Assembly: GCA_963719225.1 (NCBI GenBank)
Contig: CAVRAY010000001.1
Location: 192,001 to 256,000 of the forward strand
DNA length: 64,000 bases
Direction of reading: 5' to 3'
Origin: Thermoanaerobaculia bacterium
GTDB lineage: Bacteria; Acidobacteriota; Thermoanaerobaculia; UBA5066
Numbering within the stretch: the stretch's first letter is position 1; every line of letters begins with the position of its first letter. The notes below the pieces were generated by a model. It did no database searches, was not told the DNA's origin, and saw only the letters and a program-made list of their open reading frames with translations. A program made the position numbers and the translations under genes. Below are positions 13,041-60,521 of this stretch, one piece after another.

Positions 13041-13532
13041 CTACTTCTTGGGCGCGTCCGCCGGCTTGAGGTCGAATTTCCCGTTCACGACCGCGAAGAT
13101 GACGCACCCGTCGGCACTTCCGGCGTCGCACTTTGTCACGTGCTTCACCGTGTGGGGTTCGTACTCGTAGGAGCCGGGCGGGAGCTTCCTCTCCGACTCG
13201 CCCTCCGTTGACGCGACCATCGTTCCCGAGACGACCGCGAAGCGGATGTCCGACGAGTGCGTGTGGAGCGGGGCCGTGAATCCCGGCTTGAACTTGTGGA
13301 AGGCGCCATGGGGTCCCTTGGCCGGATCACCCCAGACCACCGCCATCATGACGTCGGCGTTGGCCGGGTTGGGGACCCATTTCAGCTCGTCGGGTGTCAT
13401 GGTCACGAGCTTGGCGGGCTTCGCGGCGGGTTTCGCCTTTGCAGCACCCGCCTTCGCCTCGTCCGCAAGAGCCGCGGGAGCAAAGAGGGCAACCGCGAGG
13501 ACCATGAGCAGGGTCTTGAGAGCGACTTTCAT
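13041..13532 (-). CDS. Secreted cupin (DUF4437-like) protein
   Basis: Signal peptide; WGDP..GP, PLHTHS, LPPGSY...P...H cupin motifs; SD AAGGAGG. Confidence 0.8.
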   Translation of the reverse strand: MKVALKTLLMVLAVALFAPAALADEAKAGAAKAKPAAKPAKLVTMTPDELKWVPNPANADVMMAVVWGDPAKGPHGAFHKFKPGFTAPLHTHSSDIRFAVVSGTMVASTEGESERKLPPGSYEYEPHTVKHVTKCDAGSADGCVIFAVVNGKFDLKPADAPKK

Positions 13533-13566
13533 GACGCCTCCTTTTCAGAATGCGAATCATATGCGC
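13530..13566 (-). promoter_or_regulatory. Putative -10 (TATGAT) plus SD, copy 1 of duplicated upstream module
   Basis: Minus strand GCGCATATGATTCGCATTCTGAAAAGGAGGCGTCATG; near-identical copy at 16620-16658. Confidence 0.6.
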
Positions 13567-13640
13567 CCCCTGTTCCGGGAGCGCTGGCCGCCGGCCGGAG
13601 GCACAGCTGTCGGAAGACATACAATCACACCAGGTCTTCC

Positions 13641-16241
13641 ATGGCACTCGTTGCGGGACAAAAACTTGGCCCTTACGAGATCCTTGCGCCGCTCGGCGCC
13701 GGAGGGATGGGCGAGGTCTATCGCGCGCGAGACTCGCGGTTGCGGCGCGAGGTCGCGATCAAAGTGCTTCCGCCGGAGCTTGCCGCCGATCCCGACCGGA
13801 ACCAGCGTTTCGAGCAGGAGGCGCGCGCGGCCTCCGGCCTGAACCACCACAACATCGTCACGATCCACGACATCGGGTCCTCCGACTCCACCGTCTTCAT
13901 CGCGATGGAGCTCGTCGACGGGAAGACGCTACGGGAGATCCTGCGGGCCGGTGCGCTTCCGACCCGACGTCTGCTCGACATCGCCGGCCAGGTCGCCGAC
14001 GGGCTCGCCAAGGCGCACGCCGCCGGGATCGTCCATCGGGACCTGAAGCCCGAGAACGTGATGATCTCGAAGGACGGCGTCGTCAAGATCCTCGACTTCG
14101 GCCTCGCGAAGCTCCTGAAGGACCAGCCCGAGGAAGGCACCGACATTCCGACGGCGACGCGCGCCGGCACGGTGATGGGGACGGTCGGGTACATGTCTCC
14201 GGAGCAGGCGAGCGGAAAGCCGGTCGATTTCCGGTCGGACCAGTTCTCTCTCGGGTCGATCTTCTACGAGATGGCGACGGGCAAGCGCGCCTTCGAGCGC
14301 GGGACGACTGCGGAGACCCTCACGGCGATCATCCGCGAGGAGGCAGACCCGGTCGAGAAGCTGAACGCGAACGTGCCCGCGCCGTTCCGTTGGCTCGTGG
14401 AACGGTGCCTGCAGAAGGATCCCGAAGAGCGCTACGCCTCGACGCGCGATCTCGCCCGCGACCTGAAGAGCATCCGCGAGCACCTCTCCGACGCGTCCGT
14501 CGCCGTGTCCGGAGCGGTTTCGGGCCGGCCGGGAGCGGCGCCTCCGGCTCTTCGGCGGCGCTCGGCGCGGGCGGCGGTTTTCGTGGCGGCTCTGCTCGCG
14601 GCTCTCGCCGCCGGGGCGCTTCTCCAGAAGCGCTTCGCGCGGTCCGCGCCGCCCTCCTACCAACAGATCACCTTCGGTAGCGGCACGATCCGTTCGGCGC
14701 GCTTCGCACCGGACGGGCAGACGATCGTCTTCAGCGCGGGCTGGGACGGCGGCCCGCTCAAGCTCTTCCTCAAGCACCCCTCCAGCCCGGACTCTCTGCC
14801 GCTGGCTCTTCCGAGCGCCAACCTGCTCGGGATCTCGCCCTCGGGTGAGATGGCGATCGCGGTCGACTGCCGGTCGAACCACCCGGGGGTCTGCGCCGGC
14901 ACGCTGGCACGCGCCGCCCTGACCGGCGGATCCCCCCGCGACGTGGCGGACGGAATCCAGGAAGTCGACTGGGCGTCGGACGGAGCGACGATGCTCGTGG
15001 TGCGCGACGTCGGCGGGAAGGCCCGTATCGAGTTCCCGATGGGAAAGGTCCTCTACGAGACCTCGGGGCACGTCAGCTACGCGCGCCTGTCGCCGAAGGG
15101 CGACCGGATCGCCTTTCTCGACCACCCTTTTCCGCTCGACGACGCGGGAACGGTCGCGGTCATCGACCTCGCGGGGAAGAAGACGAGGCTGACGGGCCAA
15201 TGGGCGAGCGAGCACGGGCTCGCGTGGGCGCCCTCGGGTCGCGAAGTCTGGTTCACGGCCACGGAAGCCGGCGCGAACCGCTCGCTCTACGCGGTGACGC
15301 TTTCGGGGCACCTGCGCGTCGTGACGCGCGTGCCCGGCGGTCTGAAGCTCCACGACGTCGCCAGGAGCGGGAAGGTCCTCCTGACGCGCGAGAGCCCGCG
15401 CGTCGGAATCCTCGGCATGCTCCAGGGAGACGCGCGCGAGCACGACATGTCGTTCCTCGACTACTCGTTCGCCGCGGACCTCTCGGCCGACGCGCGGCTG
15501 CTCCTCTTCGACGAGGAAGGGGAGGCGGGAGGCGCGAACTACACCGTCTATCTGCGCAAGTCCGACCACTCTCCGGTCGTCCGGCTGGGCGAGGGAAACG
15601 CGCTGGCCCTTTCGCCGGACGGCAAGTGGGCGCTTTCGATCCTGCCGCTGCCCAATTCCCCGTTCCGCCTCCTGCCGACGGGAACGGGAGAGCACCGGGA
15701 GCTGGCGCTGCCGGGCCTCAGCGCGGAACAGGCCGCGACGTGGTTCGTCGACAGCAAGCGAATCGTCTTTGCGGCGAGCGAACCCGGCCACGGCGTCAGG
15801 CTCTTCGTGCAGGAGATCGACGGAGGAAGGCCGCGGCCCGTCACGCCAGAGGGGGTCTCGACGGCTCTTCCGGGCTTCGCCGTTTCTCCCGACGAGAAGT
15901 CCGTCGCGGCGGTCGGGCCGGAGCAGAAGGGCGCGCTCTTTCCCGTGGAGGGAGGCGGCGCGGCGCGGCCGATTCCCGGTCTTCTTCCCGGCGAGTTCCC
16001 GCTGCGGTTTTCGCCGGACGGCCGCTCGCTCTACGTCTGGAAGCGCGGAGATCTGCCCGCGCGCATCACGCGCCTCGACCTCGAGACCGGCAAGCGCGAC
16101 GTCTGGAAGGACCTGCTCCCGGCTGACCCGGCGGGCGTCGAACGCATCTCGAACGTCCTCGTCACGCCGGACGCAAAGGGCTATGCGTACTGCTACGCAC
16201 GCTTGTTGTCCGATCTCTTCGTCGTCGAGGGCCTGAAGTAG
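13641..16241 (+). CDS. Hanks-type Ser/Thr kinase with TM helix and C-terminal TolB/PD40 beta-propeller
   Basis: LGAGGMGEVY, VAIK, HRDLKPEN, DFGLAK, YMSPEQ; repeated SPDG/APDG blades. Confidence 0.92.
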   Translation: MALVAGQKLGPYEILAPLGAGGMGEVYRARDSRLRREVAIKVLPPELAADPDRNQRFEQEARAASGLNHHNIVTIHDIGSSDSTVFIAMELVDGKTLREILRAGALPTRRLLDIAGQVADGLAKAHAAGIVHRDLKPENVMISKDGVVKILDFGLAKLLKDQPEEGTDIPTATRAGTVMGTVGYMSPEQASGKPVDFRSDQFSLGSIFYEMATGKRAFERGTTAETLTAIIREEADPVEKLNANVPAPFRWLVERCLQKDPEERYASTRDLARDLKSIREHLSDASVAVSGAVSGRPGAAPPALRRRSARAAVFVAALLAALAAGALLQKRFARSAPPSYQQITFGSGTIRSARFAPDGQTIVFSAGWDGGPLKLFLKHPSSPDSLPLALPSANLLGISPSGEMAIAVDCRSNHPGVCAGTLARAALTGGSPRDVADGIQEVDWASDGATMLVVRDVGGKARIEFPMGKVLYETSGHVSYARLSPKGDRIAFLDHPFPLDDAGTVAVIDLAGKKTRLTGQWASEHGLAWAPSGREVWFTATEAGANRSLYAVTLSGHLRVVTRVPGGLKLHDVARSGKVLLTRESPRVGILGMLQGDAREHDMSFLDYSFAADLSADARLLLFDEEGEAGGANYTVYLRKSDHSPVVRLGEGNALALSPDGKWALSILPLPNSPFRLLPTGTGEHRELALPGLSAEQAATWFVDSKRIVFAASEPGHGVRLFVQEIDGGRPRPVTPEGVSTALPGFAVSPDEKSVAAVGPEQKGALFPVEGGGAARPIPGLLPGEFPLRFSPDGRSLYVWKRGDLPARITRLDLETGKRDVWKDLLPADPAGVERISNVLVTPDAKGYAYCYARLLSDLFVVEGLK

Positions 16242-16244
16242 CTT

Positions 16245-16622
16245 CTATTTCAGAAGCGAGGCCAGCTCTTTCCGGACCTCGTCCATCTTGACCGTGTGGT
16301 CCGGCTGCTTGAAGAGCACGTCCCCCTTCGCGGAGCGAACCACGAGCCCGTGGTTCTCGAATCCGAGCTCCTTGATCTGCATCTTCGAGTCGGGGGTGGT
16401 CGCATCGACGTTCCTCGCGACGACCTTTCCCGGGAATTCCTTCTCGAGCCCGCTCACGGCAGGCTTCACTTTCGCGCAAACGGGTCAACCCGGCAGGAAG
16501 AAGTAGGTCACCTCCACGGGCTTCGCCACGGCCGCGCCGGCCTTCGTCTCGTCGGCGTGCGCGGCGGGCGCGAGAAAAGCCGCCACGAGAGCGACCAGGA
16601 CGATTCTGAAAGAGGCCTTCAT
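16245..16622 (-). CDS. Probable selenoprotein: secreted thioredoxin-fold protein with UxxC motif (in-frame TGA at 16487-16485)
   Basis: Two track ORFs are in the same frame. Read-through gives signal peptide ...VEVTYFFLPG-U-PVC-AKVKPAV..LEKEF.GKV, a thioredoxin beta1-CxxC-alpha pattern. A hairpin follows the TGA. Confidence 0.8.
16447..16465 (-). promoter_or_regulatory. Candidate bacterial SECIS hairpin
   Basis: AGCCUGC-CGUGA-GCGGGCU: 7-bp stem (one G-U), loop starts 26 nt after UGA, G at second loop position. Confidence 0.5.
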
Positions 16623-16658
16623 GACGCACCTCCTTTTGAGAATGCGTATCATATGCGC
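16620..16658 (-). promoter_or_regulatory. Putative -10 (TATGAT) plus SD, copy 2 of duplicated upstream module
   Basis: Minus strand GCGCATATGATACGCATTCTCAAAAGGAGGTGCGTCATG. Confidence 0.6.
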
Positions 16659-16773
16659 TCCTTCGAAGACGGAACGGCGAGGTTCAGAGCCGGCCGTTCG
16701 CGCACGAGGCGAGGAAGATCCGGCGAGGAGCATCGGAGGCGGCGGGCGGTAGAATCGCGGAAAAGGTGGACAG

Positions 16774-17649
16774 ATGTCGCTCTTCATGAAGTTCAACCTG
16801 ATCCTGATTCTCGTTTTTGCGGTCGCGCTCGTTCCGGCGGGCTACATCTCGAACAGCCTGCTCCAGAAAAACGCACGGACGCAGATCGTCCAGAACGCGC
16901 GGATCATGATGCAGACGGCGATGGCGACCCGGGGCTACACGGTCAAGCAGATCAAGCCGCTCCTGGCGCCGCGCCTCGCGGACGAGTTCCTGCCGCAGTC
17001 GGTCCCCGCCTATTCGGCGACGGAGATCTTCAATTACCTGCGCGAGAAGAATCCCGAGTACACGTACAAGGAAGCCACGCTCAACCCGACGAACCCGCGC
17101 GATCGGACGGTCGACTGGGAAGCGGACATCGTGAACGCGTTCCGCGCGAACGAGAAGCTCCCGGAGCTCATGGGCGAGCGCGACACATCCCTCGGGCGCG
17201 CGCTTTACCTCGCGCACCCCCTCAAGATCACGGACGCGGCCTGCCTTTCGTGCCACACGACGCCGGACGTGGCGCCGGCGTCCCAGGTGAGAGCCTACGG
17301 CACGAGGGGCGGCTACGGCTGGAAGCTGAACGAGATCATCGGCGCGCAGATCGTCTCCGTGCCCATGAACGTACCGATCGCCCTCGCGGACAAGGCGTTC
17401 AAGACGCTCCTGGGCTCCCTGGTCGCGGTCTTCGCGAGCATCCTCGTCGTCCTCAATATCTTGCTCTGGCTCGTGGTCATCCGGCCGATCAAGCGTCTCT
17501 CGCAAATGGCGGACCAGGTGTCGACGGGCAATCTCGACGTCCCCGAGGTGACCGTGAAGGGGTCGGACGAGGTCGCGGTGCTTTCGGGGTCGTTCAACCG
17601 GATGCGGATCAGCCTGACGAAGGCGCTCAAGATGCTCGAGGGCGAGTAA
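16774..17649 (+). CDS. Membrane sensor: DUF3365/Tll0287-like heme c domain plus HAMP, no output domain
   Basis: TM-periplasmic-TM; LNPTNP..R, CLSCH heme motif, YG..GYGWK..EIIGA; C-terminal HAMP (RPIKRL...DEVAVL..SFNRM) then stop. Confidence 0.85.
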   Translation: MSLFMKFNLILILVFAVALVPAGYISNSLLQKNARTQIVQNARIMMQTAMATRGYTVKQIKPLLAPRLADEFLPQSVPAYSATEIFNYLREKNPEYTYKEATLNPTNPRDRTVDWEADIVNAFRANEKLPELMGERDTSLGRALYLAHPLKITDAACLSCHTTPDVAPASQVRAYGTRGGYGWKLNEIIGAQIVSVPMNVPIALADKAFKTLLGSLVAVFASILVVLNILLWLVVIRPIKRLSQMADQVSTGNLDVPEVTVKGSDEVAVLSGSFNRMRISLTKALKMLEGE

Positions 17650-17665
17650 GGCCGGACGTCCTCGG

Positions 17666-19147
17666 ATGACCGACACGATTCCGCACGGCTCCCGATTCGG
17701 CGACTACGAGATCCTGGAGGAGCTCGGCGCCGGAGGCATGGGCAAGGTCTACCGCGCGCGCGATCTCACGCTGGACCGGCTCGTCGCGCTCAAGACGCTC
17801 GCCCTGCAGCTGTCCCAGGACTCGGGCTACGTGCAGCGCTTTCTCAAGGAGGCGCGCGCCGCCGCACGGTTGAACCATCCGAACATCGTGCAGATCTACG
17901 ACTTCGGGTGCGTCGACTCCATCTACTACCTCGCGATGGAGTTCGTGGACGGGCATTCTCTCGGCACGTACCTCAAACGCGGCCATTTCAGCGAGTCGGA
18001 ATCCATCCAGATCATCCGGCACGCGTGCCGCGCCCTGTCGGTCGCGCATGCTGACGGCATCGTCCATCGCGACATCAAACCCGACAACCTGATGCTGACG
18101 AGCCGCGGCGACGTGAAGCTCGTGGACCTCGGCATCGCGAAGCGTCTCGACGAGGAGGCATCGCTCACGCAGACGGGCCAGGCGATCGGAACGCCGCATT
18201 ACATCTCGCCCGAGCAGATCCGCGGGCAGCGGGACGTGGATTCCCGCGCCGACATCTATTCGCTCGGCGCGACGCTCTACCACCTCCTCACCGGGCACAC
18301 GCCGTACAAAGGATCGTCCGGTCCGATCGTCATGTCGATGCATCTCGTCGAGCCGTTGCCGGACCCGCGCCGGTTCGAGGCGAACCTCACGGAAGGCGTC
18401 TGCCGCGTCGTGCGCAAGATGATGGCGAAGAACCGCGACGAGAGGTACCCGGACGTCTATGCGCTCGACCTGGACCTCTATCGCCTCCAGTGCGGGGAAA
18501 CGCCGCAGCCGGAGGCCGGAGCCGCGCCGGCTGCCGAGGCGCGCGCGGGATCCGCCGCGTCTCCGGCCTACGTTCCCACGACCGTCGCCGCGTTCGATTC
18601 GGGAGTCCTGAACCGCATCGAGGAAAGCCTCGCGGCCGCCGTCGGTCCGATGGCGAAGGTTCTCGTCCGCAAGACCGCGCGACACGCGCCGAATTACGAG
18701 GCGCTCTGCGGCGAGCTCGCGCAGCAGGTCTCCGACCCGCGCGCGCGCGACACCTTTCTATCGAAATGTCTCCGCGCGGCGCGCACGCCCACGCCCGCGG
18801 GTCCGAGCGGGGCCGGCCGCATGACCCCCACGCACGGGAGCGAGGCGCCCACCCAGGCCCAAGGGCACAGTCCGTCCGTCGGATCGGGGTCCTCGCGCCA
18901 CTTCTCGCAGGAAGCCTACTTCGGCTCCGGCTCGGCTCCGAGGTCGATCGGCATCTCCGAGCAGGATCTCCACTTCGTGGAGATAGAGCTCGCGAAGCAG
19001 ATCGGCCCCCTCGCCCGCGTCGTCGTGAAACGCGCGGCGAAGACCACCGGCGTCCTGAACGACCTCATCTCGAAGCTGGAGCTCGAGATCCCGACGGACG
19101 ACAGCCGCCGCGCGTTCCGCGACGCGATGCGGAAGCACTTCCGCTAG
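17666..19147 (+). CDS. Cytoplasmic Ser/Thr kinase with two C-terminal helical repeats
   Basis: LGAGGMGKVY, HRDIKPDN, DLGIAK, GTPHYISPEQ; repeats EESLAAAVGPMAKVLVRKTA and EIELAKQIGPLARVVVKRAA. Confidence 0.9.
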   Translation: MTDTIPHGSRFGDYEILEELGAGGMGKVYRARDLTLDRLVALKTLALQLSQDSGYVQRFLKEARAAARLNHPNIVQIYDFGCVDSIYYLAMEFVDGHSLGTYLKRGHFSESESIQIIRHACRALSVAHADGIVHRDIKPDNLMLTSRGDVKLVDLGIAKRLDEEASLTQTGQAIGTPHYISPEQIRGQRDVDSRADIYSLGATLYHLLTGHTPYKGSSGPIVMSMHLVEPLPDPRRFEANLTEGVCRVVRKMMAKNRDERYPDVYALDLDLYRLQCGETPQPEAGAAPAAEARAGSAASPAYVPTTVAAFDSGVLNRIEESLAAAVGPMAKVLVRKTARHAPNYEALCGELAQQVSDPRARDTFLSKCLRAARTPTPAGPSGAGRMTPTHGSEAPTQAQGHSPSVGSGSSRHFSQEAYFGSGSAPRSIGISEQDLHFVEIELAKQIGPLARVVVKRAAKTTGVLNDLISKLELEIPTDDSRRAFRDAMRKHFR

Positions 19148-19172
19148 GCCGTCCGAAGGTCAGGAGTCGGGG

Positions 19173-19607
19173 CTAATCCACGACCTCGATCTTGGGGTCG
19201 ATCTCCTTCGCCTTGTCTGGGGGGTCACCCCAAAGCACGAGCTTGGCCGTATAGGGGAAGACCCCCTTGTTTTTCGCGCGCTCGGACTTCAGGACCTTCT
19301 TCTCGTGCTTGGGAGGGGTGTCGAAAGGCGATCCGCCGCCGAACGAAACCTCCACGTCGCCATCCGGCGAGGCCCAAACGACCCAGTCCTTGTTCTTGCG
19401 GAGGGTAATTTTCTTATCCTCCGCCGGATCGAGTATTTCTCCCCTGCCCGTGTCCTTGTTGTAAATGACGATTACGGCAACCGCGTGGCCGGTATCGAGG
19501 ACGACGGGTTTGTCCTCCCGCTTGTTGCAGCCCGGCAGGGTCAGGGCCGATGCGCCAAGAAGGAAAACGGCCGCGAGGAGGACGGGAAACCGCTTCGAGA
19601 TCTTCAT
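19173..19607 (-). CDS. Small putative lipoprotein, beta-rich, C-terminal IDPKIEV motif
   Basis: ATG overlaps kinase stop (ATGA); SD GGAG; lipobox-like LPGC after a hydrophobic stretch. Confidence 0.7.
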   Translation of the reverse strand: MKISKRFPVLLAAVFLLGASALTLPGCNKREDKPVVLDTGHAVAVIVIYNKDTGRGEILDPAEDKKITLRKNKDWVVWASPDGDVEVSFGGGSPFDTPPKHEKKVLKSERAKNKGVFPYTAKLVLWGDPPDKAKEIDPKIEVVD

Positions 19608-22240
19608 CTTTTCTCTCCTGTTGACGGGGGAACGGCGGTGAGAGTCGGAGCGAGGGACGCGAGCCTTTGGAAATCCGGCTCGCTGCGGAGCGGTATGAAA
19701 TCCGGGTCGTGCTGGATCTCGACGAGGCCGTAACCGCGTGCGACGGCCTTCTGGAGCCACGCGAGGGCCTCGGCTTTCCTTCCGAGAACCATCGCGGCGG
19801 CTGCGGCGGGCTCGAGGACCTCCTGATCCTCCGGAGCGAGCGCGACGCCTCGCCGGATCTCGGACCATGCCCGTTCGGAGGCTCCCGTCCGGGCGAGACA
19901 CCGGCCGAGGAAGACGATGCTCACCGCGTCGGCGGGGTTCACGGTCAGCTCCGCCGTCACGAGCGGAAGCGCCGCCTCGTACGCGGCGCGCGCGCGCCCG
20001 GCTTGCTCCGGGCTCTGCGAGAGCGCGTCGCCGAGGTAGATGTGCCAGCGGTAGTTCTTGGGCGCGAGGTCCGCAGCGCGCTGGAAGGACGCTGCCGCCT
20101 CGGGGAACCGGCCCAGCAGATAGTGCGCGACGCCGAGGTTCGAGTACGCCTCGGCCACCGGGAGGATCCGGATCGAGTCGTCGAGGGCCGCGCGTGCTTC
20201 CTCGAACCGCCCCAGGCGCAAGAGCGCCGCCCCGAGGTTCTGGTGCACCTTCGCGACGTCCGGGTTCAAGGCGATCGCGCGCCGGTAGGCGGCGGCGGCG
20301 CTCTCGTAGCGGCTCGTGCGCCAATAGAGGTTGCCGAGCCGGTTGAACGCGTTCCACGACGTGGACCGAAGCTCGACGAGGCGGAGAAGCGACCGTTCCG
20401 CTCCGGCGATGTCCTGGCTCTTCTGAAGCGCGGACGCCAGGGCGAGAATCGCGGCCACGGAGCTCGGGTCGCGGTCGACGGCCTTCCGGAGGACGGCGAT
20501 CGCGTCGGCGCTCCGGCCGGTCGCCGTCAGGACTTCGCCCAGCGTCACCTGCGCCTCGGGGAGTTCCGGGTCGAGCGTGCTCGCGCGCTGCGCGGCCTGC
20601 TGCGCGAAGCTGGCGAGAGTCACGTCCTTCGTGAGGTTGTAGGAATACAGGTACGCCCGTCCGAGCGCGGCTTGCACGGGCGCCGAGCCTTCGCCTCCGG
20701 GAATTCGCGTGAGGAGCGAGATCGCTTTCTCGACAGAGGCCCTGTCCTCGGACCTCTCCAGGTGCCCGAGCGCCACGACGTAGTCCGTCTGCGGCGGGCC
20801 TGCGGGGACCGACGAAGGCGCAGGGATCGGGACCGCGCCTCCCGACGCGAGGTGGACCTTGAGCGCCGACGCGAGCTTCACCGTGAGCTCGTCCTCGAGA
20901 CGGAAATGTTCGGCCGCGGGTCCGGTCACCTCGCCCGCGGCGATCTGGACGGGAGAGCCCGCGAGCGAGATCGAAAACGAAAGCTGGCGCGTGTCGCCCA
21001 TCTGCCGGACGGCGGGCTGGACGAGGAGGTTTGCGCCCGTGTCGCGCGCCCACTTCGCGACGTCCGTCTCCCTGAGCATCGCCGGGCCCGAGGGCCGCAT
21101 GATCGCGAGTCCCTGGATGCTCTGGAGCTTCACGCCGAGGCTGAACGACACCCCGTCGCAGAGCTGCCGCCCGTCCTCGCGGCCCGTGAGGTCCGTCGCC
21201 GGCAGGATCGCGAGCATCTTCGAAGCGGGCAGGGCCTTCCCGTCGCGGCCGCGCACGGACACCCAGAGGAGCGCGGCGACGACGGCGAGGAACGCGCCCC
21301 CCGCGGCGACGAGCATCCGGCGGCCTCCGCGGCGCGCGAAGGATCCGGAGCGGCGTTCCAACGGAACGATGGCCGTCGTGCGCGAGCCCGCCGCGGCCTC
21401 GAGGAAGGCGCGCGTCTCGCTCACGTTCGCCGGGCGGTCGACGGGGTCCTTCCGGAGAAGGCGTCTGATCAGATCTCGCAAGGGAAGCGGCGTCGCGGCC
21501 GGCAGGGCGGCCCAGTCCGGATCCCGGTCGAGGATCGCGACGAGGATGTCCGAGAGGCTCTCGCCGTCGAAAGCTTTCTTCCCCGCGAGCATCTCGTAGA
21601 GGACGCATCCAAACGACCAGAGGTCCGAGCGGGCGTCGAGCGTGCGGCTGCGCGCCTGCTCGGGGCTCATGTAGCTCGCGGTCCCGAGGACGACGCCCTG
21701 ATGCGTCGCATCGGCCGCGGCCGTCGGCGAATGCGAAATATCGGGCGAGGCGCTGCCGAGCGCGAAAGCCTTCGCGAGACCGAAGTCGAGGAGCTTCACT
21801 TTTCCCTCTGGCGTCACGACGACGTTCGCGGGCTTCAGGTCGCGGTGGAGGATCCCCTTGGCGTGCGCGGCCTCGAGCGCATCGGCGATCTGGAGAGAAA
21901 TGCGCAGCACCTCGCTCGCGGAAAGGGGCGCGCGCATGATGCGCTGCTTGAGCGTCTCGCCGCTCACGAGCTCGAGGACGAGAATGCGGAGGTCGTCGAT
22001 CTCCTCGAGGTTGTAGATCGCCGCGATGCTCGGATGGTTCAGAGAAGCGAGGACGTGCGCCTCGCGCGTGAAGCGGGCGAGCCGATCGGCGTCCTTCGCG
22101 AACGCCGCCGGCATGATCTTGAGCGCCACTTCGCGCTGGAGACGCGTGTCGCGCGCGCGCCAGACCTCGCCCATGCCTCCGGCTCCGAGAGGGCCGAGGA
22201 TCTCGTAGGCCCCGAGGCGGGCGCCCGGTCTGATCAGCAT
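19604..22240 (-). CDS. Ser/Thr kinase with TM, TolB-N/FlgO-like domain and TPR repeats
   Basis: LGAGGMGEVW, HRDLKPAN, DFGLAK, YMSPEQ; LAILP domain; TPRs (AYSNLG, AIALNP). Confidence 0.9.
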   Translation of the reverse strand: MLIRPGARLGAYEILGPLGAGGMGEVWRARDTRLQREVALKIMPAAFAKDADRLARFTREAHVLASLNHPSIAAIYNLEEIDDLRILVLELVSGETLKQRIMRAPLSASEVLRISLQIADALEAAHAKGILHRDLKPANVVVTPEGKVKLLDFGLAKAFALGSASPDISHSPTAAADATHQGVVLGTASYMSPEQARSRTLDARSDLWSFGCVLYEMLAGKKAFDGESLSDILVAILDRDPDWAALPAATPLPLRDLIRRLLRKDPVDRPANVSETRAFLEAAAGSRTTAIVPLERRSGSFARRGGRRMLVAAGGAFLAVVAALLWVSVRGRDGKALPASKMLAILPATDLTGREDGRQLCDGVSFSLGVKLQSIQGLAIMRPSGPAMLRETDVAKWARDTGANLLVQPAVRQMGDTRQLSFSISLAGSPVQIAAGEVTGPAAEHFRLEDELTVKLASALKVHLASGGAVPIPAPSSVPAGPPQTDYVVALGHLERSEDRASVEKAISLLTRIPGGEGSAPVQAALGRAYLYSYNLTKDVTLASFAQQAAQRASTLDPELPEAQVTLGEVLTATGRSADAIAVLRKAVDRDPSSVAAILALASALQKSQDIAGAERSLLRLVELRSTSWNAFNRLGNLYWRTSRYESAAAAYRRAIALNPDVAKVHQNLGAALLRLGRFEEARAALDDSIRILPVAEAYSNLGVAHYLLGRFPEAAASFQRAADLAPKNYRWHIYLGDALSQSPEQAGRARAAYEAALPLVTAELTVNPADAVSIVFLGRCLARTGASERAWSEIRRGVALAPEDQEVLEPAAAAAMVLGRKAEALAWLQKAVARGYGLVEIQHDPDFIPLRSEPDFQRLASLAPTLTAVPPSTGEKR

Positions 22241-22300
22241 GTCGTCATCGGAGATTATCTCGTCCAGCCGTGCGCGTTTCGTTAGACTGGCCGGCATTCC

Positions 22301-23719
22301 ATGAGGATCCCGTGGATCGCGAGTCTCGTTCTCGCGTGCGCCGTCGGCGCGCCGGCCGGCCGCGGCGAAAGTGCGGAGGCATCCGCGCTCTGGAACGCGT
22401 GGCCGCACACGGTCGAGGTTTCGCCGTTCGCGCTCAAGCACGAGGACCTGCGCGTACGGCTCTCCGCCCTCGCCGCGCGGCATCCCGGGCTCTTCGCGGT
22501 CGCCGAGGAGGGCGTTTCGGCCGAAGGGCGGAAGATTCCCCTTCTCGTCGCCGGCTCGGGTCCGACGACGGCTCTCCTCTGGTCGCAAATGCACGGCGAC
22601 GAGCCGACGGCGACGAGCGCGCTCCTGGACATCCTCGAGCATCTCGGAAGGACGAGGAAGACGCCCGAGACCGAGAGACTCCTGTCGCGACTCACGCTCG
22701 CGATCATCCCCATGCTCAACCCCGACGGTGCCGCGCGAACGCGGCGCACGAACGCGCAGGGCATCGACATCAACCGCGATGCGTTGCGCCTCCAGACGCC
22801 CGAAGGCCGCTTTCTCAAGTCCGTGCGCGACCGGCTGAAACCCTCGATCGGATACAACCTCCACAACCACAGCCCGAACGTGACGGCGGGGAAGAGCGGC
22901 AAGCAGGTCGCGATCTCGCTTCTCTCCGTCCCGTTCGACGACGCATTCACCGTGAACGAGGGACGCCGGACGACCATGCGGATGGCCGTCCTGATCCGGC
23001 GGCTTCTCGAGCCGTGGGCGAAGGATCGCGTGGCCCGTTACGACATGGACTACACCGCGCGCGCCTTCGGCGACTCGATGACGCGATGGGGCACGCCGAC
23101 GCTTCTCATCGAGACGGGCGGGTTCTTCGGACCCGGCGAGGCGGACGTGCTCGTGCGCCTCAATTTCGTGGCGCTCCTCGGCACGCTTCACGCGCTCGCG
23201 GACGCCTCGATCGCGAACGTGGACGCCGGGGCATACGACGCGATTCCTCTCAACACGCGGGACCGTCTGTTCGACATCCTCCTTCGCAACGCGCGCGTCA
23301 TCGGAGGCGGCGGCCTCCCGGCGTTTCACGCGGACGTGGGCCTGAACGTCGCGTCCACGCGTCCCGGCTTTTCGGGTCCGTCTCCGCGCGGAATGCGCGG
23401 AGGCGTCCTCGAGGTGGGCGACCTGACGGAGTTCCTCGGCAAGACGGAGCTCGATCTGGGCGGCCGGCTTCTCGTCGTCGCGCCGCCGGGAGGCGAGGAC
23501 GGCTGGAGAAAGACGCTCGCCCGCCTCGCGGGCCGGGGACTCGTGACGGCGGACGGCCTCCTCGCGCTCTCCGAGCCGGACCTTTCCGCCGAGGCGAGGG
23601 TGTGGCTCGGCGGGGCCGCGCCGCTCGCTCCCGGTTACGGCGGGGATTTCCTCGTCCTCGCGCCGGCGGGTGCCGGCCGGTTCCGCGTCGAGCGCCGGAT
23701 TTCGCCCGTCGAGCCCTGA
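22301..23719 (+). CDS. M14 family zinc carboxypeptidase, secreted
   Basis: S.EGR, MHGDE, LNPDG, R.NAQGIDINRD, NLH, LIETG. Confidence 0.88.
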   Translation: MRIPWIASLVLACAVGAPAGRGESAEASALWNAWPHTVEVSPFALKHEDLRVRLSALAARHPGLFAVAEEGVSAEGRKIPLLVAGSGPTTALLWSQMHGDEPTATSALLDILEHLGRTRKTPETERLLSRLTLAIIPMLNPDGAARTRRTNAQGIDINRDALRLQTPEGRFLKSVRDRLKPSIGYNLHNHSPNVTAGKSGKQVAISLLSVPFDDAFTVNEGRRTTMRMAVLIRRLLEPWAKDRVARYDMDYTARAFGDSMTRWGTPTLLIETGGFFGPGEADVLVRLNFVALLGTLHALADASIANVDAGAYDAIPLNTRDRLFDILLRNARVIGGGGLPAFHADVGLNVASTRPGFSGPSPRGMRGGVLEVGDLTEFLGKTELDLGGRLLVVAPPGGEDGWRKTLARLAGRGLVTADGLLALSEPDLSAEARVWLGGAAPLAPGYGGDFLVLAPAGAGRFRVERRISPVEP

Positions 23720-23723
23720 CGCC

Positions 23724-24812
23724 TCAGCCCGAGGCGCCGACGACGTCCCGCACGTACCCGAGACGCCGCATCCCGACGAGAACGATGTCCACGCCCGGCG
23801 TTTCGAGGAGCGCACGCAGCGTGCGCTGAGAGAGGCTCGAGCCTTCGATGCGCGCGGGCGCGAATGCCGTGTCCAGATACGACGCGAGGGACCCGACGCG
23901 CTCCGCGTCCCACGCCGCGTCGCGTCCCAGCTCGCGGAGGATGTCGGGCGCCAGGGCCGCGAACCGCACGAGTCCCCGGGCGGAAAACGCGTTCAGAGGC
24001 CGGTTCACGAGGACGCCGAGACCCGCGCTCTTCGCGACTTCCAGGACGCTCTTCCCGTCCGCCGTGTGAATCGGCTCGCGCGCTCCCGTTTCGAGCGGAT
24101 TGAAGGGAAGCTGAACGACGGCGAAGCCCGGCCCCGCTCTTTCGAGGACGCGCTCGAGCGAGACCGCGTCCTCTTTCTCGTGCGGCACGACGAAGGTGTT
24201 CGACGAGATGCCGTACGACCCGATGCGACCGGCGGCCACCTCCGATTCGAGATGCGCAAGAGCCCGCGAGATGCGCTCGTAGAACGCCGCGCGCGCCTCG
24301 TCCCGCGGCACGCCGCGGTGGGCAGCGTCCATCAGAAAGTACTCGGGGTTGTGGAGGAGAAGAACGTCGACCTTCCCGAGATCGAGCCTTTCGAGCGAAG
24401 CTGTCAGCTGGTCGGCGAGAAAGTCGGGAGAGATCGAGTGCCAGCAATCCGGCGCGTACTCGGTCATCTCGCTCCACGGCCGCCCCGCGCGTGCCCGGCG
24501 GATCGCCTCGCGCTGGTTCGACCCCTGGACGTAGCCCGCCTTCGTCACGAGAACGAGATCCTCGCGCCGGGCGGCGCCGCGTCCCAGGACGTCCTTCACG
24601 ACCTCGCCGACGAGGATCTCGCTGTGGCCGTCGGCGTAATTCGTGGAGGTGTCCACGAGCGAGATCCCCGAGACGAGCGCCTCGCGCAGGGCCTCGCGGT
24701 GGACGTCGGTACGGTCATCCACGCGGTATCCGCCGAAGCCGATCCTCGAGACGCGCGGATGAACGCGGCCGAGGGGGCCGTACGCCGACTCGGGAAGCCG
24801 TGAAAGGGCCAT
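23724..24812 (-). CDS. Aldo/keto reductase
   Basis: SRIGFG, DTS..Y..G.SE, TKAG, SLERL....D..LLHNP, G.I..YGIS. Confidence 0.88.
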   Translation of the reverse strand: MALSRLPESAYGPLGRVHPRVSRIGFGGYRVDDRTDVHREALREALVSGISLVDTSTNYADGHSEILVGEVVKDVLGRGAARREDLVLVTKAGYVQGSNQREAIRRARAGRPWSEMTEYAPDCWHSISPDFLADQLTASLERLDLGKVDVLLLHNPEYFLMDAAHRGVPRDEARAAFYERISRALAHLESEVAAGRIGSYGISSNTFVVPHEKEDAVSLERVLERAGPGFAVVQLPFNPLETGAREPIHTADGKSVLEVAKSAGLGVLVNRPLNAFSARGLVRFAALAPDILRELGRDAAWDAERVGSLASYLDTAFAPARIEGSSLSQRTLRALLETPGVDIVLVGMRRLGYVRDVVGASG

Positions 24813-59186: not shown

Positions 59187-60521
59187 ATGAGAATGACTTC
59201 CTCGACGGCGATCATCACGGCGCTCCTCGCGGCTTCTGCTTCCTCGTTCGCGTCCACGACGAAAGAAGCTGCAAAAGAAGTCCTGCCCTTCATCGCGGAC
59301 GACTACCCGAAGGCCCTCGCGCTCGCGCGCGCCGAGAAGAAGCCGATCTTCCTGGAGACCTGGGCGCCCTGGTGACACTCCTGCCGTGCCATGAGGGCCT
59401 TCGTCTTCACGGACAAGGCTCTCGGGCGGCAGGCCGGACGGTTCGTCTGGCTCTCCATCAACACCGAAAAGCGCGAGAACGCGGCCGTCCTCGCGAAATA
59501 CCCGATCCAGGCCTCGCCCACGCTTTTCGTGCTCGATCCCGTGGCCGAGAAGATCGTCCTCAAGTACGTCGGTGCCGCGACGGTGCCGCAGCTCCAGCGC
59601 ATCCTCGACGATGGCGCACGCGCCGCGGGCCACGGCCGAAAGCCCGACGAGTGGCTCGCGAAGGCGGACGCTTTCTATTCGGCCGGCCAGAACAAGGAAG
59701 CGGCCGAGGCCTATCGCGCGGCCCTGAAGGGCATGGCGCCTTCCTCGCCGTCGTACCCGCGCACCGCCGAGTCGCTCCTCTTCGTGCTTTCCGCGAGCCG
59801 CCAGCACGAGGCGTGCGTCGAGGTCGCGCGCGAAGCGTTCCCGCACCTGAGAACGTCGCCGTCCGCCGCAAACGTCGCGGCTTCGGGCCTCGACTGCGCG
59901 CTCACGCTCGACAAGAAGCTGCCCGCGAGGTCCGCGCTCGTCTCCGAATTCACGGCCGACGCGGAACAGGTCCTGAGCGGGCGGCGCGCAGGCCTCGCGG
60001 TCGATGACGTCTCGTCGCTGTATCTGACGCTCGCCGGCGCGCGCGGGGACGCGGGCGACGAGAGCGGAAAGAGGAAGACGCTCGAGGAATTGGCGTCGTA
60101 TCTGGAAGGCGAGGCCGCGAAGGCGAAGACCGCCGAAGGCCGCGCCGCGTTCGACGCGCACCGCATCACGGCATACCTCGAGCTGGGCCAGCCCCAGCGG
60201 GGAATCGCGATGCTCGAGGCCTCCGAGCGCGACTTTCCCGACGACTACAACCCGCCCGCCCGCCTCGCCCTCGCCTATCGGGCCATGAAGAAGTACGACG
60301 AGGCCCTCGCGGCTTCCGACCGCGCGCTCCAGCGCTCCTATGGTCCGCGGAAGCTCGTCATTCTGCAGGCGCGCGCCCGCATCTACGCGGACAAGGGAGA
60401 TCCCCAGGCGGCGAGAAGGACCCTCGAAGAGGCCCTCGCGTGGGCCGAGGCGCTCCCGAAGGAACAGGTGTCCGAGCGGCAGGTCGCCGCGCTCAAGAAA
60501 CAGCTCGAAGCGCCCAAGTAG
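59187..60521 (+). CDS. Probable selenoprotein: exported thioredoxin-fold (WUHSC) plus TPR protein (in-frame TGA 59373-59375)
   Basis: ORFs 59187-59375 and 59391-60521 share a frame. Read-through gives AL..ARAEKKPIFLETWAPW-U-HSC-RAM, then PTLFVLD and TPR helices. Confidence 0.85.
59393..59423 (+). promoter_or_regulatory. Candidate SECIS-like hairpin
   Basis: GAGGGCCUU/AAGGCUCUC 9-bp stem, bulged C, GUC/GAC, loop UUCACG, starting 17 nt after UGA; loop lacks the usual 5' G. Confidence 0.4.

What the first reader, a model, noticed from the sequence alone, without database searches (positions are those of the whole stretch)
16245..16622. Hidden selenoprotein 1: small secreted thioredoxin-like protein with G-U-P-V-C
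Seen: in-frame TGA exactly at the first position of a CxxC after a beta-strand (VTYFFLPG*PVC), coding-like sequence on both sides, and a 7-bp hairpin with loop CGUGA 26 nt downstream. Known: Sec replaces the N-terminal Cys in UxxC thioredoxin-fold proteins, and bacterial SECIS lies just 3' of UGA with a G near the loop 5' end. The resolving region lacks an obvious cis-Pro (FENHGLVV), so this may be an undescribed family. Standard annotation would split it in two.
Basis: partly seen in the sequence, partly recalled or inferred. Interest (0 to 1): 0.75.

Follow-up and report, generated by a model that had tools for sequence, protein, structure and literature searches.

The report
Exported two-histidine thioredoxin-fold selenoprotein
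The apparent stop codon in this small bacterial gene almost certainly encodes selenocysteine, so gene finders cut in two a likely exported, thioredoxin-shaped protein that matches no catalogued family checked, lacks the usual active-site proline and has two conserved histidines that may hold a metal such as copper.

Summary
Observation confirmed; the gene is on the minus strand (16622-16245, 125 aa, TGA at 16487). The host has selA, selB, selD and tRNA-Sec. All 33 homologous loci I extracted, from 33 genomes of the phylum, keep TGA at this codon. They share a hairpin 26 nt downstream whose synonymous sites are almost frozen. Ten metagenome loci have TGC instead and lack that hairpin. Databases hold the gene as 45-aa and 74-aa pieces. 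The predicted fold is thioredoxin (pLDDT 94, Z 13.7), but no Pfam or NCBIfam model reaches its cut-off, including the Sec family VPGUxxT. His91-Gly92 replaces the cis-proline loop; His91 and His109 are kept in 30 of 30 Sec forms. Three distant relatives are fused to HMA or DUF6370 domains. Best guess: a periplasmic Se/S/His/His soft-metal site (about 0.45); rival: His-assisted redox catalysis. There is no conserved gene neighbourhood, and function is untested. In this genome the signal peptide and leader were taken from a cupin gene. The scan reported what appears to be this family before on other DNA (five findings, three with the same metal idea). Verdict: real selenoprotein, uncatalogued family of a known kind.

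The parts
16245..16622 (-). Selenoprotein CDS, 125 aa plus TAG; thioredoxin fold, UxxC
16629..16634 (-). Shine-Dalgarno-like AGGAGG, 6 nt before the ATG
   Evidence: sequence
16554..16622 (-). Predicted Sec-pathway signal peptide, residues 1-23, ending A-H-A
   Evidence: sequence; crude hydrophobicity and charge test
16517..16661 (-). Leader (upstream DNA, RBS, signal peptide) 72% identical over 145 nt to the leader of the DUF4437 cupin gene at 13569-13427; close relatives have another leader on this gene
16485..16487 (-). In-frame TGA, codon 46, inferred selenocysteine
16476..16478 (-). Cys49, second position of UxxC; invariant in 31 of 31 Sec forms
16447..16465 (-). bSECIS-like hairpin, 7 bp, loop CGUGA (16458-16454), 26 nt after UGA
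16347..16352 (-). His91-Gly92 at the start of strand beta-3, where thioredoxins have the cis-proline loop
16296..16301 (-). Asp108-His109 in the loop between the last strand and last helix; invariant in Sec forms

Best explanation
This gene has an in-frame UGA followed by a conserved hairpin and almost certainly encodes a selenoprotein, predicted to be exported and thioredoxin-folded, in which Sec46, Cys49, His91 and His109 likely form a soft-metal site (copper most likely) that would buffer or hand over metal in the periplasm. Steps: (1) shown: UGA, hairpin, selA/B/C/D, conservation. (2) Inferred with high confidence (about 0.97): SelB binds the hairpin and inserts Sec. (3) Predicted: signal-peptide export and thioredoxin fold. 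(4) Inferred (about 0.45): without the cis-proline, the selenolate and thiolate can bind a metal, helped by the two histidines; oxidation to a Se-S bond would release it, and a DsbD-type protein might re-reduce it. The confidence given is for the whole chain, step 4 included.
For: Sec machinery: tRNA-Sec 59.9 bits, anticodon tca; selA, selB, selD over cut-off, selD itself with TGA. TGA at this codon in 33 of 33 loci; 10 of 10 family loci from metagenomes have TGC and lack the hairpin sequence (L069-L078; the search pattern required Cys/Pro/Ser/Ala there). Fold: pLDDT 93.8, Z 13.7, rmsd 1.7 to a thioredoxin. His91 aligns to the cis-Pro or the residue before it. Passages of PMC2665069 say the loop closely approaches the CxxC, the cisPro-1 side chain is usually within 4 A of the first Cys, and the cis-Pro prevents metal binding; PMC6210436 says P75S/T/A human Trx binds [2Fe-2S]. 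Both His are present in 30 of 30 Sec forms, 19 of 27 CxxC forms and 1 of 5 Cys-less forms (Fisher p=0.053). Distant Cys members are fused to HMA (P0213) or DUF6370 (P0212, P0243); one member has Cys at the His91 position (P0143). The host has a DsbD-type protein.
Against: No metal binding was measured, and no atomic coordinates were available to check His geometry; the nearness of His109 to the active site rests on recalled thioredoxin topology. No conserved neighbours and no metal-handling genes recur in 33 short and 13 longer loci (ORFs read by eye, not scanned). The fusions are 3 distant proteins among 127 hits; HMA occurs once. 8 of 27 CxxC forms lack one or both His. Peroxiredoxins put a catalytic Arg at the cis-Pro position (PMC2757866 passage), so a His there can be catalytic rather than a ligand. 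selA is also present in 29 of 30 non-carriers, so co-occurrence does not discriminate.
Confidence: 0.45

Rival explanations
1. Metal-free periplasmic redox enzyme: the selenolate attacks a small substrate (peroxide, sulfoxide, halogenated aromatic or organometal), His91/His109 act as acid-base catalysts, Cys49 resolves to a Se-S bond and DsbD recycles it.
For: UxxC at the start of helix 1 in a thioredoxin fold. Arg at the cis-Pro site is catalytic in peroxiredoxins (PMC2757866 passage). The 2026 review says most such selenoproteins are likely redox proteins. His-assisted Sec chemistry in deiodinases is recalled, not from a call. DsbD present.
Against: No peroxiredoxin TxxU motif or insertion; fusions point to metal domains; both Cys-position residues and both His are kept together.
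Confidence: 0.37
2. Ordinary periplasmic thiol-disulfide oxidoreductase (DsbA/DsbC/TlpA-like) acting on protein disulfides, with a divergent loop.
For: Best structural and profile hits are all thioredoxins; the Atlas neighbours of a Cys homologue are thioredoxin-like clusters.
Against: The cis-Pro, more conserved than CxxC in such enzymes (PMC2757866 passage), is absent in the whole family; scores are far below cut-offs (17.6 against 23.5 bits for PF00085).
Confidence: 0.14
3. TGA is a real stop (pseudogene or two small genes), a sequencing error, or Trp under a variant genetic code.
For: Database gene calls split the gene, and a few read TGA as W (P0003, P0137, P0164, P0184).
Against: Same TGA in 33 genomes with an intact frame on both sides (one locus truncated by its contig end, one frameshifted further down); Cys at the same column in orthologues; TGA is the commonest stop of this host (820 of 1195 coding-like long ORFs); hairpin constraint.
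Confidence: 0.03

Closest known systems
Sec-containing thioredoxin and glutaredoxin (PF00085, PF00462; UxxC), Table 1 of PMC13188914
   Same: Thioredoxin fold, UxxC at the start of helix 1, bSECIS just 3' of UGA.
   Different: Signal peptide; no cis-Pro; His-Gly loop and second His; below Pfam cut-offs (17.6/23.5 and 16.4/22.9 bits).
VPGUxxT family thioredoxin-like selenoprotein (OS_HP5, NF041383)
   Same: Similar residues before Sec (xPGU); thioredoxin-like.
   Different: Model is 287 positions with UxxT; this gene is not among the 4 weak hits in its own genome at E<=10 and not listed for any of 99 family members.
Thioredoxin-like selenoprotein SaoT (NF040730) and Uxx-star family (NF041212)
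   Same: Small thioredoxin/glutaredoxin-like (seleno)proteins.
   Different: Only 4 and 1 of 99 members match weakly (best E 4.5e-4 and 6.4e-3); no Sao operon seen in the neighbourhoods.
ArsF-family protein (NF040494)
   Same: Small thioredoxin-like protein; weak similarity over about 70 residues in 8 of 99 members.
   Different: 14-19 bits against a cut-off of 60; the host's true ArsF member lies elsewhere, beside a DsbD-like gene.
Sco1/SenC copper chaperones (recalled, no call)
   Same: Exported thioredoxin-fold protein using Cys ligands plus His for copper: what this may work like.
   Different: Sco has CxxxC and a peroxiredoxin-like insertion; no Sco hit among the listed structural matches. 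Not a member.

Membership tests
Bacterial selenoprotein | In-frame UGA with coding sequence on both sides, conserved in orthologues | tested here: met
   33 of 33 loci
Bacterial selenoprotein | Cys-containing homologues at the same column | tested here: met
   27 CxxC rows in A3; TGC seen in DNA of L069-L078
Bacterial selenoprotein | bSECIS: loop 3-9 nt, stem 4-16 bp, G in first two loop positions, 16-37 nt from UGA, MFE <= -7.5 (PMC13188914 section 5) | tested here: met
   loop 5, stem 7, C-G-U, 26 nt, -11.3 kcal/mol; all 33 loci -8.7 or lower
Bacterial selenoprotein | Covariation proving the hairpin | tested here: inconclusive
   97.4% of cells paired, 22 one-sided changes keep the pair, 0 double changes, shuffles not exceeded; slid controls 19-45% paired
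Bacterial selenoprotein | selA, selB, selC, selD in the genome | tested here: met
   selA in 31 of 32 other carriers; the exception G136 has selB and selD
Bacterial selenoprotein | Se in the protein | not testable with these tools
   needs 75Se or MS
Thioredoxin-fold superfamily | Core beta-alpha-beta, beta-beta-alpha topology with (U/C)xxC at helix 1 | tested here: met
   (predicted model)
Thioredoxin / glutaredoxin proper (PF00085, PF00462, TIGR01068) | Score above curated cut-off | tested here: not met
Thioredoxin / glutaredoxin proper (PF00085, PF00462, TIGR01068) | cis-proline at the start of beta-3 | tested here: not met
   His-Gly instead
NF041383 VPGUxxT | UxxT motif, about 287 aa, HMM above 275 bits | tested here: not met
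NF040730 SaoT / NF041212 Uxx-star / NF040494 ArsF | HMM above cut-off | tested here: not met
   (not listed for the window's protein at E<=1)
Families in BSepDB (111) defined by representative sequences | Similarity to a Table S2 representative | not tested
   supplement cut when stored; no hit for LPGU or PAVSGL in the part held
Metal-binding thioredoxin-fold chaperones (Sco-like function) | Cys/Sec and His side chains converge on one metal | not testable with these tools
   model coordinates not returned; position of His91 inferred
Tat substrates | Twin-arginine signal | tested here: inconclusive
   absent in the window's protein; RR-x-hydrophobic pattern in 11 of 33 homologues; no Tat model listed for 4 of them

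The most novel reading that the evidence does not exclude
A widespread family of exported selenoprotein metallochaperones or metal buffers in which a thioredoxin scaffold has been converted to a Se/S/N/N site (Sec46, Cys49, His91, His109), so that selenocysteine serves as a direct ligand for free soft metal rather than as a redox catalyst.
Probability: 0.35. Interest if true: 0.75.

Novelty: new variant of a known kind. Interest (0 to 1): 0.5.

Why it matters
It adds an uncatalogued selenoprotein family to Acidobacteriota that annotation systematically loses: 161 of 163 listed database relatives are fragments starting after the UGA. It occurs in 34 of 50 sampled genomes of one family. It is also a natural version of the cis-proline-removal experiment, so it makes a direct test possible of whether Sec can act as a periplasmic metal ligand on a thioredoxin scaffold. 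Sec, Cys and Cys-less forms exist side by side for comparison. New Trx-like selenoprotein families are found regularly (119 families in the 2026 review), so the Sec codon alone is not a surprise.

Tried and rejected
Plus-strand reading: non-coding-like. Rfam: 0 matches in 15800-17000. PADLOC: none. Sigma-70 promoter scan: 0 sites, no terminator for this gene. Neighbourhood as a clue: none conserved; one locus has an adjacent Prx-like TGA gene (L084). Tree: quick method only, 75 columns, 56 of 96 branches open; Sec, Cys and fragment rows are intermixed, but direction and number of Sec/Cys switches cannot be stated. Two ArsF and NF041383 leads failed cut-offs. Sequencing runs: no run holds half of the words; contigs of two RNA runs span the TGA region at about 91% identity, which are relatives, give no strand and may be DNA, so this is not used as evidence. 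HH alignment to L079 did not reach the C-terminal half, so His109 could not be mapped on a canonical thioredoxin. No complex prediction: no binding claim. Literature: searches found no description of this family; Haft and Tolstoy 2025 (PMC12013261) was not held, and its families were seen only as rows of the review's Table 1 and as NCBIfam models.

Full report
Observation. The coordinates hold a minus-strand gene, 16622-16245, of 125 codons with one in-frame TGA at codon 46 (16487-16485) in VTYFFLPG-U-PVC; the plus strand is not coding-like. AGGAGG lies 6 nt upstream. The gene is single-copy in the genome. The closest named records, 89-97% identical in the matched part, are titled Thermoanaerobaculia or uncultured Acidobacteria, so the host is probably of that class.

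Is the TGA selenocysteine? The host has tRNA-Sec (59.9 bits over a 47 cut-off; anticodon tca), selA, selB and selD over their cut-offs, selD with its own in-frame TGA. A crude scan shows further TGA candidates of known types (FdhA-like, Prx-like, GrdB/PrdB-like, named from motifs by recall). TGA is otherwise the main stop (820 of 1195 coding-like long ORFs), which excludes a TGA=Trp code. Strong homologues occur in 22 of 60 relatives, 13 of 301 genomes of the phylum sample including the host and 38 of 351 of the class sample, 34 of 50 in family f2. Every strong match lists one TGA; in G594 the match covers only the C-terminal part, so its TGA may be the stop. I extracted 33 loci and all 33 have TGA at codon 46; one is cut by a contig end and one is frameshifted downstream. 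The unpublished genome G037 is one row in these counts; no claim depends on it. selA is found in 31 of 32 other carriers, and the exception has selB and selD. selA is also in 29 of 30 non-carriers, so this shows compatibility only.

The hairpin. A 7-bp stem with loop CGUGA, 26 nt after the UGA, is the consensus structure and meets all four bSECIS constraints in section 5 of PMC13188914 (-11.3 kcal/mol). In 31 full-length genes Ala55 is always GCC, Val56 always GTG, Ser57 always AGY and Gly58 GGG in 30; synonymous identity exceeds expectation by 0.41 in codons 53-59 against 0.05 elsewhere (sequences are related). Ten metagenome loci with TGC at the position (two near-identical) lack this sequence, although some fold other hairpins of similar energy. 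Against: the wider region folds no better than shuffles, and there are no double compensatory changes, as expected when codons pin the stem.

Annotation. The collection holds the window's gene as P0129 (first 45 aa) and P0004 (last 74 aa). Of 163 listed relatives begin after the Sec position; four proteins read the codon as W.

What the protein is. The AlphaFold2 model of residues 24-125 has pLDDT 93.8 and matches thioredoxins (Foldseek TM about 0.7; Z 13.7, rmsd 1.7 over 87 residues). No Pfam or NCBIfam model reaches its cut-off for the window's protein, and 99 family members give only weak NCBIfam hits. The look-alike Sec family VPGUxxT (NF041383) does not hit the gene. I read Table 1 of PMC13188914 in full; no row fits except the generic Trx/Grx-type UxxC entries, which I could compare only through their domain models. 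A basic, hydrophobic N-terminus passes a crude test in 29 of 33 loci; 5 are lipoprotein-like and 11 carry an RR pattern (not confirmed by any Tat model).

The distinguishing feature. Strand beta-3 begins at Gly92. His91 aligns to the cis-Pro of one canonical thioredoxin-like sequence and to the residue before it in another. Either way the loop has no Pro and carries a His. Passages of PMC2665069 place this loop against the CxxC and state that the cis-Pro prevents metal binding; PMC6210436 reports [2Fe-2S] binding by P75 mutants of human Trx; PMC2757866 notes that peroxiredoxins use an Arg there catalytically (Su et al. 2007 itself was not read). His109 follows the last strand; its nearness to the active site is recalled topology. 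Both His are kept in 30 of 30 Sec forms, 32 of 33 C-terminal fragments, 19 of 27 CxxC forms and 1 of 5 Cys-less forms (one row dropped as misaligned; p=0.053). Among the 127 hits, distant Cys members are fused to HMA (P0213) or DUF6370 (P0212, P0243) (11 hits were scanned).

Mechanism. Sec insertion about 0.97; export and fold predicted; function open. I put a Se/S/His/His soft-metal site, most likely Cu(I), at 0.45, His-assisted metal-free redox catalysis at 0.37 and an ordinary disulfide oxidoreductase at 0.14. No neighbourhood supports any of these: flanking genes differ between genomes. A DsbD-type protein exists in the host as a possible reductant.

Local history. The window's leader (16661-16517) is 72% identical to the leader of the DUF4437 cupin gene at 13569-13427. 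In G007, G011 and G016 the selenoprotein has another signal peptide and matches only from just before the mature domain. In G011 the order is Tll0287/HAMP gene, intergenic DNA, cupin, selenoprotein, and the window matches that intergenic DNA and cupin leader over 244 nt. The window's gene is therefore likely a deletion fusion that put the Sec domain behind a cupin's promoter and signal peptide. A contig in run X1 covers 16223-16764 in one piece, so the arrangement is not unique to this assembly; another X1 contig skips 16253-16721, a relative without the gene.

Novelty. The recoding mechanism is textbook. The family was not found in the papers searched (listings only unless named above; PMC12013277 one passage; PMC13326102 part 1 of 6, passages and a truncated supplement). 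BSepDB Table S2 and PMC12013261 were not seen and could bear on this. Earlier notes of this scan describe what appears to be the same family in other genomes; I had reached the two-histidine reading, and they are not independent support. Verdict: real selenoprotein gene, new variant of a known kind, interest 0.5.

Noticed in passing
window 59187-60521 (+), TGA at 59373: Second candidate selenoprotein: signal peptide, WAPW-U-HSC thioredoxin-like domain with its proline loop, then TPR-like repeats, 444 aa; hairpin of -18.8 kcal/mol after the UGA; no NCBIfam model above cut-off among the 25 shown.
   Followed up: partly
window 13041-13532 (-): DUF4437/cupin gene whose promoter region, RBS and signal peptide are 72% identical to those of the selenoprotein gene.
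   Followed up: yes
G000 C1:736134(-), C1:2923112(-), C2:437698(-), C1:3642345(-), C1:28697(-): Other in-frame TGA candidates: FdhA-like UHGP, Prx-like AWUPAC, GrdB/PrdB-like UPMC, SelD UACK, and an unexplained GCGN-U-GG.
   Followed up: no
L084:6552-7223 (-): AhpC/TSA-family gene with in-frame TGA (GW-U-PYC) directly upstream of the homologue in G178, same strand.
   Followed up: partly
L078:6623-6898 (+): ORF that looks like the C-terminal half of a deiodinase-like selenoprotein (recalled resemblance), 1.3 kb from a Cys-form homologue.
   Followed up: no
L020, L023-L025, L028-L033, L036: 11 of 33 homologues start with a twin-arginine-like signal, while others have Sec-type or lipoprotein signals.
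   Followed up: partly
window 13257-23815: Cluster of three Ser/Thr kinase ORFs (with beta-propeller, or TPR-like C-termini) and a Tll0287/HAMP gene around the selenoprotein gene (third kinase judged by eye).
   Followed up: no
G000 C2:222382-222743 and C2:609793-610153: Two different tmRNA genes with near-identical tags; the assembly is listed at 6.2% contamination.
   Followed up: no
P0127, P0145, P0162, P0163, P0166: Family members that have lost both active-site cysteines; several are lipoproteins.
   Followed up: partly
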